Shown here piece after piece: positions 29,639 through 30,299 of a stretch of 64,000 nucleotides of DNA (position 1 is the first letter of the stretch; each line of letters opens with the position of its first letter). The notes under the pieces were generated by a model that was given only the letters and a program-made list of their open reading frames with translations, was not told where the DNA came from and made no database searches. A program made the position numbers and the translations under genes. The DNA is taken from positions 71,307 to 135,306 of the IMG/VR virus record IMGVR_UViG_3300031867_000009, one strand, 5' to 3'. The DNA comes from a virus. Its lineage: Duplodnaviria; Caudoviricetes.

Positions 29639-30299
29639 ACTAAGTACCAAGGGCAACTGCTGAGGTATATGATGGAATAAATGTCGTATGTGGAGTGCGG
29701 CATTCAGCGGAGAAATCTGTGGATAGTATTGTTGGTTCTTCGATGCAAGTGTTGGGAGACACGAGTGTTGAGTTCATCGAACAAAGTAGCATCTTAAATC
29801 GAAAGATAGGTGTGAAAGGGAGAAGCAAGTTCTTTCCAAAGAACGAGCAGGGCGGTGGCGAATGGGCCGTACTCAAAAGGTACGGATGTTCAGACGCATA
29901 CCCCATCGTCCAAAAGCATATACTTAGCTTAGTGGTTAAAGCGACAACCTGAGGAGTTGTAAAGCATAGGTTCGAGTCCTATAGTATTACAAGATGAAGC
30001 AAAAGTGTATGCGACTCTATGTCGAAAACTGACTTATCGTTCTGCAATATGGACGCGCGCAGAGTCCGCAAGACAATGCGTGAGAGAGTATTGAGTAGTT
30101 GCAACGCTAAGAGACCGCAATCTCTGAACGCCGCAAGCGAGCATGTGATGAAAAGAAATCTATGAAAGCATAGAGTAAGAGTTTGCCAGTAGCCACTGAA
30201 ACTGGTGTCAGTCGTACCTATAGTTTAATCGACTATGTGACAACTTGTGTCCAACCACAAGAGACGGTACGTAAAAGAGTCAAATGTCTCAGCTCTAGT
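29639..30299 (+). ncRNA. ROOL-like large structured ncRNA
   Basis: Ends pair (GCTGAG 29659-29664 with CTCAGC 30288-30293); motifs GTACTCAAAAGGTAC, GCAAAAGTGT, TTGAGTAG, TGAAAAGAAAT and TTTAATCGACT that I recall from ROOL; about 590 nt without the tRNA-like insert; has its own promoter and terminator. Confidence 0.7.
29918..29992 (+). ncRNA. tRNA-Leu(GAG)-like domain embedded in the ROOL-like RNA
   Basis: D-arm GCTT/AAGC, anticodon arm ACAAC-CTGAGGA-GTTGT, T-arm ATAGG-TTCGAGT-CCTAT, only 5-bp acceptor, no CCA. Confidence 0.75.

What the first reader, a model, noticed from the sequence alone, without database searches (positions are those of the whole stretch)
29639..30299. ROOL-like RNA carrying an embedded tRNA-Leu(GAG)-like domain
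Seen: inside the large RNA, 29918-29992 has intact D, anticodon (loop CTGAGGA) and T arms but only a 5-bp acceptor and no CCA. It sits at the tip of a host stem (GCATAC 29896-29901 pairs with GTATGC 30007-30012). GAG is not among the anticodons of the 29 free tRNAs. Removing the insert leaves about 590 nt, near the usual ROOL size. Established: ROOL and GOLLD are phage/tRNA-associated ornate RNAs that assemble into multimeric cages, and embedded tRNAs have been noted for GOLLD. Inference: the cage may display tRNA mimics as multivalent decoys for anticodon nucleases or tRNA-binding proteins, or the insert may be a processing site.
Basis: partly seen in the sequence, partly recalled or inferred. 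Interest (0 to 1): 0.75.

Follow-up and report, generated by a model that had tools for sequence, protein, structure and literature searches.

The report
GOLLD phage RNA with tRNA-like insert
The flagged RNA is a member of the known GOLLD family of giant cage-forming phage RNAs, not ROOL, and the crippled tRNA look-alike in its central linker is a rare but already published feature of that family.

Summary
The tRNA-like element is real: 29918-29990, Rfam tRNA 57.7 bits, ARAGORN Leu-GAG. It has a 5-bp acceptor, discriminator C and no CCA, whereas all 28 free tRNAs of this 135-kb phage encode CCA.

The host RNA is not ROOL. Rfam places the phage's true ROOL at 19008-19598. The flagged RNA matches the whole GOLLD 3'-domain model (29850-30295, 97 bits, E 4.5e-26, below the gathering score of 150). 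Nine clade members scanned, with or without a tRNA, also score below it. A promoter and a terminator bound a unit of about 825 nt.

The tRNA fills the variable linker, which faces the cage lumen in the solved env-38 GOLLD cage. tRNAs in this linker are published (Kretsch 2025; Mycobacterium GOLLD). This scan has notes on GOLLD with an embedded tRNA in at least 36 other genomes.

Two sister sequences keep the insert through compensatory stem changes. Both lack CCA and have A1.A72. One has a degenerate GAG loop and the other reads GAU. Both phages have free tRNAs covering those codons.

I read it as a tethered, non-decoding tRNA-shaped module. Its function is untested. It is a new member of a known kind.

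The parts
29460..29488 (+). sigma-70-type promoter of the GOLLD unit (TTGAAA, 17 nt, TATAAT)
   Evidence: 11 of 12 consensus matches. Conserved in sister sequences L226 and L230.
29495..30318 (+). whole GOLLD RNA transcription unit, about 825 nt (ends inferred)
   Evidence: Bounded by the promoter and terminator. The longest +-strand ORF is 85 aa (29695-29952). 89-91% identical to L226 and L230 across the aligned unit and its flanks.
29495..29849 (+). variable 5' domain of GOLLD (not covered by the Rfam model)
   Evidence: Conserved in sister sequences, with what look like compensatory changes by eye, e.g. GTACC/GGTAT versus GGGTC/GACCT (not formally tested). Parts are alignable to more distant clade members.
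29850..29911 (+). first hairpin of the GOLLD 3'-domain model (Rfam positions 1-63), with loop UCAAAAG
   Evidence: Rfam alignment. 23 pairs, 9 of them with changes on both sides, across 17 sequences.
29895..29901 (+).
   Evidence: 7 bp with 30007-30013, 100% paired, 5 of 7 pairs changed on both sides. The equivalent helix is present in 51 of 51 other GOLLDs.
29912..29996 (+). GOLLD variable linker (85 nt), almost wholly occupied by the tRNA-like insert
   Evidence: Falls in the single-stranded variable stretch of the Rfam model. Relatives have AT-rich linkers of 63-86 nt here.
29918..29990 (+). tRNA-like module, anticodon GAG at 29951-29953; 5-bp acceptor, C73, no CCA
   Evidence: The cloverleaf is kept in L226 and L230, with 4 pairs changed on both sides.
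29916..29925 (+). linker-start strand GCAUAUACUU, an alternative 10-bp partner of 30003-30012; overlaps the tRNA 5' acceptor strand
   Evidence: Present in the MFE fold. An 8-12 bp equivalent occurs in 15 of 17 clade members and covaries. Seen in 17 of 51 other GOLLDs.
29997..30006 (+). conserved GOLLD motif AAGCAAAAGU that starts the 3' domain core
   Evidence: Invariant in the clade. Used as the anchor of the pattern scans.
30007..30013 (+).
30014..30023 (+). J13/15 strand of the conserved kissing interaction with L20 (pairs with 30167-30176)
   Evidence: Bracketed pseudoknot of the Rfam GOLLD alignment, 9 of 10 pairs formed. An intermolecular bridge in the env-38 cage (PMC12286853).
30167..30176 (+). 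L20 strand of that kissing interaction (AGCAUAGAGU)
29997..30295 (+). conserved GOLLD 3' domain core
   Evidence: Rfam RF02032 model positions up to 416 of 416 are matched. 94-97% identical to the sister sequences.
30297..30318 (+). intrinsic terminator (AGUCUC-UUCG-GAGACU, then a U tract)
   Evidence: Identical in L226 and L230.

Best explanation
Shown:
- The locus is one GOLLD RNA gene of about 825 nt with its own promoter and terminator. It belongs to a divergent sub-clade that scores below Rfam's gathering score.
- Its variable linker, between the first 3'-domain hairpin and the AAGCAAAAGU motif, is filled by a tRNA-shaped module.
- This linker placement has been published for other GOLLDs.

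Inferred by homology to the solved env-38 GOLLD cage:
- The linker points into the lumen. An assembled cage of 10-14 protomers would therefore carry 10-14 tethered tRNA-shaped modules inside.

Inferred from anatomy and comparison:
- The module is not a working tRNA-Leu.
- It most likely stays covalently attached as a structural or ligand-presenting part of GOLLD. One possible role is a tethered mimic for a tRNA-binding factor.
- Its weak acceptor stem competes with a stronger GOLLD helix for the same 5' strand.
For: Identity of the host RNA:
- GOLLD model matched end to end, 97.2 bits, E 4.5e-26; E 1.6e-27 over the whole genome.
- Nine clade members scanned, with or without a tRNA, score 87-121 bits, so the low score is not caused by the insert.
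- The canonical hairpin-loop:flank pseudoknot covaries.
- A promoter and a terminator bound the unit.

Placement:
- The tRNA lies in the model's variable single-stranded stretch.
- Seven other IMG/VR contigs (six distinct tRNAs) have a tRNA at the same site. Each ends 1-7 nt before AAGCAAAAGU. Three of these GOLLDs score above the gathering score.
- Literature: PMC12286853, PMC12990946, PMC6582537.

Not a normal decoder:
- 5-bp acceptor, A1.A72 and U2.U71 mismatches, C73, no CCA, lowest GC of the set at 38%. All 28 free tRNAs encode CCA.
- The body is not Leu-type: a 4-bp D stem and a short variable arm, where bacterial tRNA-Leu normally has a long one. It is no closer than 68% to any free tRNA.
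- Sister sequences also lack CCA and have A1.A72. L226 has A33 and a 31-39 mismatch. L230 reads GAU.
- Those phages have free Leu(AAG) and Ile(GAT) tRNAs.

Shape is kept:
- 98% of cloverleaf cells are paired, and 4 pairs change on both sides.

Competing helix:
- 29916-25 with 30003-12: -10.9 kcal/mol, against -2.1 for the acceptor stem.
Against:
- Rfam's curated GOLLD threshold is not reached.
- Only three distinct sequences carry this particular insert, so the covariation statistics are weak (33 of 500 shuffles reach the observed score).
- In the window the anticodon loop is fully canonical (U33, purine 37). No free tRNA reads CUY, although CUU makes up 25% of Leu codons. That leaves room for a decoding role.
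- RNase P tolerates 1-72 mismatches, and CCA can be added after transcription (background knowledge).
- The cage geometry is taken from another GOLLD, not from this one.
Confidence: 0.5

Rival explanations
1. The insert is a genuine tRNA gene nested in GOLLD. RNase P and RNase Z cut it out and the CCA-adding enzyme finishes it. It supplies the phage's only CUY-reading tRNA. The nicked GOLLD halves stay together through the pseudoknot that bridges the linker.
For: - Good tRNA score (57.7 bits) and a canonical anticodon loop.
- No other CUY reader in the genome, and CUY makes up 31% of Leu codons.
- Other GOLLDs carry linker tRNAs with full 7-bp acceptors and encoded CCA: L220, L224 and L225 with Arg-TCT, and L221. 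These look processable.
- The covarying 7-bp pseudoknot spans the insert.
Against: - Two broken top acceptor pairs, C73 instead of the A73 used by bacterial LeuRS (background knowledge), and a non-Leu body.
- It is the only one of 29 tRNAs without CCA.
- The sister inserts have a degenerate loop or a different anticodon (GAU), and are redundant with free tRNAs.
- In Mycobacterium, no expression of the nested pseudo-tRNA was detected (PMC6582537).
Confidence: 0.25
2. The insert is a decaying tRNA pseudogene with no function of its own. It was captured by recombination in a tRNA-rich region and is tolerated because the linker accepts any sequence.
For: - 16 of 17 clade relatives have plain AT-rich linkers of similar length. 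None of the 61-67 verified GOLLDs in a sample of motif hits has a linker tRNA.
- The insert diverges 26-28% against 8% for the rest of GOLLD.
- tRNA genes in these phages are replaced often: same-anticodon tRNAs are either about 100% or 64-84% identical.
- Low GC, and decay at the acceptor end.
Against: - The D, anticodon and T stems are intact in all three versions, with compensatory changes.
- tRNAs recur at exactly this site in at least six independent GOLLD lineages.
- The 5' acceptor strand coincides with a conserved linker strand.
Confidence: 0.2
3. One reading: a ROOL-like RNA of about 590 nt plus an insert.
For: ROOL does occur in this phage, 10 kb upstream.
Against: No ROOL match at the locus at E<=10. 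The GOLLD model covers it end to end. The unit is about 825 nt.
Confidence: 0.01
4. Two separate small RNAs flank an ordinary tRNA gene of the array.
For: The region sits inside a tRNA array. GOLLD's 5' and 3' domains are separate domains in 3D (PMC12286853).
Against: - There is one promoter and one terminator. The scan found only weak promoter-like matches (9 of 12) inside the unit and no internal terminator.
- A covarying helix pairs across the tRNA.
- The tRNA is unlike all the free tRNAs.
Confidence: 0.03

Closest known systems
GOLLD RNA (Rfam RF02032) with a tRNA or pseudo-tRNA in its linker (J13/15): Kretsch et al. 2025 (PMC12286853); Mycobacterium/Mycolicibacterium GOLLD (PMC6582537; Morgado 2020 as cited in PMC12990946)
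   Same: - Giant RNA of about 800 nt in a phage tRNA island.
- Conserved 3' domain with the same hairpin, AAGCAAAAGU motif, pseudoknot and L20 kissing strand.
- tRNA-shaped insert at the same linker position. As in M. aubagnense, it looks like a pseudo-tRNA.
   Different: - Belongs to a sub-clade that scores 87-121 bits, below Rfam's gathering score of 150.
- The insert has a Leu (GAG) anticodon on a non-Leu body.
- Its 5' acceptor strand doubles as a conserved linker strand that can pair with the 3' flank.
- A ROOL RNA lies in the same genome.
ROOL RNA (Rfam RF03087)
   Same: Large ornate phage RNA near tRNAs that forms cages with an internal disordered linker. One copy lies in this window at 19008-19598.
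   Different: Unrelated sequence and fold. The flagged locus has no ROOL match. I found no report of embedded tRNAs in ROOL in the papers read.
tRNA-like modules in larger RNAs (plant-virus 3' tRNA-like structures, the MALAT1/mascRNA tRNA-like element, tmRNA); recalled from background knowledge, not tested here
   Same: A tRNA-shaped fold built into a larger RNA and recognised, or potentially recognised, by tRNA enzymes.
   Different: Those sit at an RNA end or are cut out by RNase P/Z and have defined roles. Here the module is internal, lies in a cage lumen, and lacks an intact acceptor end.

Membership tests
GOLLD RNA (RF02032) | Covariance-model match at or above Rfam's gathering score (150 bits) | tested here: not met
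   97.2 bits, E 4.5e-26, with all 416 model positions matched. The nine clade members scanned score 87-121 bits. The match is statistically secure but lies under the curated cut-off.
GOLLD RNA (RF02032) | Conserved 3'-domain elements: UCAAAAG hairpin, AAGCAAAAGU, hairpin-loop:flank pseudoknot, J13/15-L20 kissing strands | tested here: met
   All are present in the Rfam alignment. The pseudoknot is 100% paired, with 5 of 7 pairs covarying, and its equivalent is found in 51 of 51 other GOLLDs.
GOLLD RNA (RF02032) | About 800 nt, with a variable 5' domain and a variable internal linker | tested here: met
   Promoter to terminator is about 825 nt. The 5' domain diverges more than the 3' domain (11-12% against 3-6%). 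The ends are inferred, not mapped.
GOLLD RNA (RF02032) | Phage or prophage setting next to tRNA genes | tested here: met
   135-kb IMG/VR virus record. tRNAs lie on both sides.
GOLLD RNA (RF02032) | Self-assembly into a 10-14-mer cage with the linker inside | not testable with these tools
   Known only for env-38 and S. agalactiae GOLLD (PMC12286853, PMC12990946).
ROOL RNA (RF03087) | Covariance-model match to ROOL | tested here: not met
   No match in 29440-30330 at E<=10. The ROOL match (304.8 bits) is at 19008-19598.
functional tRNA (tRNA-Leu) | Cloverleaf with conserved core nucleotides | tested here: met
   RF00005 57.7 bits against a gathering score of 29. Called by ARAGORN.
functional tRNA (tRNA-Leu) | Seven-pair acceptor stem and a 3' end like the genome's other tRNAs (encoded CCA) | tested here: not met
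   5 pairs, A1.A72 and U2.U71 mismatches, no CCA. All 28 free tRNAs have CCA.
functional tRNA (tRNA-Leu) | Leucine identity: A73 and a Leu-type body (3-bp D stem with a large D loop, long variable arm; the rule is from background knowledge) | tested here: not met
   C73, a 4-bp D stem with an 8-nt loop, and a 5-nt variable region. The phage's free Leu tRNAs all have A73, and the two whose folds were examined (TAG, CAA) have a 3-bp D stem.
functional tRNA (tRNA-Leu) | Processing, CCA addition and aminoacylation | not testable with these tools

The most novel reading that the evidence does not exclude
The 5' acceptor strand of the tRNA module is also the conserved 'linker-start' strand of GOLLD. 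That strand competes with the universal hairpin-loop pseudoknot for the same 3' flank. The insert may therefore be part of a two-state switch: either the tRNA is folded and the canonical pseudoknot forms, or the acceptor stem is open and a linker-closing helix forms. Such a switch would couple exposure or processing of a tethered tRNA mimic to GOLLD folding or cage assembly. The same overlap appears in a second, unrelated tRNA-bearing GOLLD lineage (L220 family).
Probability: 0.12. Interest if true: 0.6.

Novelty: new member of a known kind. Interest (0 to 1): 0.3.

Why it matters
GOLLD and ROOL are cage-forming RNAs whose function is still unknown. The tRNAs occasionally built into the GOLLD linker are one of the few clues to what the cages hold or do.

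This locus adds a well-bounded example in a complete 135-kb phage genome that also carries a ROOL. Two sister sequences show that the tRNA shape is kept while the acceptor end and the anticodon are not. That argues for a tethered mimic rather than a stored working tRNA in this lineage.

It also shows that Rfam's GOLLD threshold misses a whole phage sub-clade.

None of this changes the current picture of the family. It gives a convenient construct for cryo-EM and for RNase P/Z assays.

Tried and rejected
- ROOL assignment: rejected.
- Low GOLLD score caused by the insert: rejected, because tRNA-less clade members score the same.
- Recent duplicate of one of the phage's own tRNAs: rejected. The best identity is 68%, the same as the background between unrelated tRNAs.
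- Fast divergence of the insert as a sign of an arms race: not sustained. The insert does diverge about 4 times faster than the scaffold, here and in the L224/L225 family. But free tRNAs of these phages are also often replaced outright.
- Searches that found nothing: blastn of the locus against cultured phages; tblastn of a neighbouring 593-aa protein; a D-arm plus anticodon pattern in IMG/VR.
- The motif scan of prokaryote genomes returned mostly chance hits. Only 3 of 111 have the hairpin, so it was not used.
- Morgado 2020 (PMC7549688) is not held.
- I could not see the published GOLLD secondary-structure figure. The P-numbering of the hairpin and helices is therefore left open.

Full report
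**What is at the coordinates**

Rfam and ARAGORN both call a tRNA at 29918-29990 (57.7 bits; Leu, anticodon GAG). ARAGORN's drawing shows canonical D, anticodon and T arms. The acceptor stem has only five pairs, with A1.A72 and U2.U71 unpaired. The discriminator is C and there is no CCA. The element has the lowest GC of the set at 38%. Most of the 28 free tRNAs have seven acceptor pairs, a few with one mismatch, and all 28 encode CCA (whole genome). The insert is no closer than 68% to any free tRNA, which is the background level.

**The host RNA is GOLLD, not ROOL**

At gathering thresholds the only large-RNA hit in the window is a ROOL at 19008-19598 (304.8 bits).

- A permissive scan of 29440-30330 finds no ROOL at all. 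It does find the complete GOLLD 3'-domain model (positions 1-416) at 29850-30295, at 97.2 bits and E 4.5e-26. Over the whole genome the E-value is 1.6e-27.
- The score lies under Rfam's cut-off of 150. Nine related GOLLDs score 87-121 bits whether or not they carry a tRNA. This is a divergent sub-clade, and the insert does not cause the low score.
- A TTGAAA-17-TATAAT promoter (29460-29488) and an intrinsic terminator (30297-30312 plus a U tract) bound a unit of about 825 nt. Both signals, and the sequence from about 29495 onward, are conserved in sister contigs.
The '590 nt without the insert' argument for ROOL does not hold.

**Where the tRNA sits**

In the GOLLD model the tRNA falls in the variable single-stranded stretch between the first hairpin (29850-29911) and the conserved AAGCAAAAGU (29997-30006). 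The linker is 85 nt: 6 nt, then the 73-nt tRNA, then 6 nt.

It extends to 7 bp (29895-29901 with 30007-30013) and is paired in every one of 17 clade members. Five of its seven pairs change on both sides. The equivalent helix (7-10 bp) is present in 51 of 51 other GOLLDs that I could verify. Topologically it is a pseudoknot between the hairpin's internal loop and the linker's 3' flank, not a simple stem bearing the tRNA at its tip.

**Relatives**

A motif scan of IMG/VR gave 98 loci.

- Of these, 61-67 have the GOLLD hairpin. None has an ARAGORN tRNA in the linker.
- Sixteen close relatives plus L023 form the window's clade. They have AT-rich linkers of 63-86 nt at this site.
- A targeted scan for a T-loop just upstream of the motif found eight contigs. 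One of them, L226, is a sister of the window's own GOLLD (below).
- The other seven carry different tRNAs at the same site: Arg-TCT (three contigs), 'Asn-ATT', Gln-CTG, Lys-CTT and one with an odd anticodon loop.
- Each of the eight tRNAs ends 1-7 nt before AAGCAAAAGU. Some have a full acceptor and CCA, others do not.
- Three of these GOLLDs score above Rfam's threshold.

Linker tRNAs are therefore rare but recurrent.

**Sister sequences of this very insert**

L226 (identical to L228 and L229 over this locus) and L230 are 89-91% identical to the window across the aligned locus.

- All three keep the cloverleaf. 98% of cells are paired, and four pairs change on both sides, three in the anticodon stem and one in the T stem.
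- All three lack CCA and have A1.A72.
- The anticodon loop is not kept. It is CUGAGGA in the window. In L226 it is CAGAGGG, which has no U33, and the closing pair is broken. In L230 it is CUGAUAA, anticodon GAU.
- The L228/L229 phage has a free tRNA-Leu(AAG), and L230 has a free tRNA-Ile(GAT). In those phages the insert does not fill a decoding gap.
- In the window no free tRNA reads CUY, and CUU makes up 25% of Leu codons. A decoding role here cannot be excluded outright.
- The insert differs at 26-28% of positions against 8% for the rest of GOLLD (Fisher p 3e-5 and 1e-6). A second tRNA-bearing lineage shows the same pattern (22% against 3-7%).
- Free tRNAs of these phages are also either near-identical or only 64-84% identical between genomes. 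I read this as general tRNA turnover, not as a special arms race.

**A second helix**

The strand GCAUAUACUU (29916-29925), which includes the tRNA's 5' acceptor strand, is perfectly complementary over 10 bp to AAGUGUAUGC (30003-30012).

- This helix is part of the minimum-free-energy fold.
- Its duplex energy is -10.9 kcal/mol. The acceptor stem is -2.1 and the canonical pseudoknot is -8.4.
- An 8-12 bp equivalent exists in 15 of 17 clade members, including the tRNA-less ones. It covaries, for example GCGTACTT/AAGTGCGC in L023.
- It also occurs in 17 of 51 other GOLLDs, for example GATGATTTTT/AAAAGTCATC.
- By eye, the L220 Arg-tRNA lineage shows a similar complementarity (ACUGAUUUU with AAAAGUCAGU) that also overlaps the tRNA 5' strand. 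I did not compute this.
- It overlaps the canonical pseudoknot on the flank, so the two exclude each other.

I could not tell whether it is a switch, a folding intermediate or a pairing in trans within the cage. I also could not tell whether it has been described before.

**Comparison with what is known**

- Kretsch et al. [quoted passage not shown] They report that the linker is disordered and lies inside the 14-mer cage. They draw the cage 'exposing the covalently linked tRNAs'.
- A 2026 review (PMC12990946) cites a tRNA-Phe in J13/15 of Mycolicibacterium GOLLD and proposes 'inhibited storage'.
- Behra et al. (PMC6582537) found a pseudo-tRNA inside M. aubagnense GOLLD and could not detect its expression.
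- This scan itself holds notes on GOLLD with an embedded tRNA in at least 36 other genomes. It also holds a note on a look-alike of this locus in another genome.

**Verdict**

My best reading, at about 50%, is that the insert is a tethered, non-decoding tRNA-shaped module of a GOLLD RNA. Excision as a real tRNA (about 25%) and neutral decay (about 20%) remain open.

Noticed in passing
window 19008-19598 (+): A full-length ROOL RNA (RF03087, 304.8 bits) lies 10 kb upstream of the GOLLD in the same complete phage genome. The sister contig (G001, which holds L226) also has both (ROOL 290.9 bits). Three more distant GOLLD-bearing contigs, all incomplete, showed no ROOL. Another first-stage note calls this stretch 'GOLLD-like'; the two names were swapped.
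   Followed up: partly
window 29916-29925 with 30003-30012; loci L007, L010, L035, L023 and others: Many GOLLDs have a linker strand that can pair (8-12 bp, covarying) with AAAAGU plus the variable 3' flank. This competes with the universal hairpin-loop pseudoknot. In the tRNA-bearing lineages this strand is the tRNA's 5' acceptor strand.
   Followed up: partly
window 26808-26884 and 28222-28298: The free tRNA-Leu(TAG) and tRNA-Leu(CAA) have a Leu-type D arm (3-bp stem, 11-nt loop), A73 and CCA. Their variable region is short, where bacterial tRNA-Leu normally has a long arm. Only tRNA-Leu(TAA) at 30942-31027 has the long arm.
   Followed up: no
window 31030-32380: The stretch that another first-stage note calls a 'third large ornate RNA' has no Rfam match at E<=1 on either strand.
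   Followed up: partly
window 28717-29124 (+): A PD-(D/E)XK endonuclease ORF (Pfam PF11645, E 9e-12) sits between tRNA-Arg(TCT) and tRNA-Phe. The sister phage (L228) has tRNA-Tyr at that position. The window's genome has no tRNA-Tyr at all.
   Followed up: partly
window 24923-26194 (+): A 423-aa xanthine/uracil permease family protein (PF00860, E 2e-96) is encoded just upstream of the tRNA array. This is an unusual auxiliary gene for a phage.
   Followed up: no
window tRNA array versus L228 and L230: Same-anticodon tRNAs of sister phages fall into two groups: 96-100% identical, or only 64-84% identical. This points to frequent replacement of single tRNA genes within otherwise conserved arrays.
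   Followed up: partly
L227:3559-3630 (-), L221:2925-2998 (-): Other GOLLD linker tRNAs look odd. One has a 6-nt anticodon loop and encoded CCA. One has anticodon ATT ('Asn'), a full acceptor and CCA.
   Followed up: no
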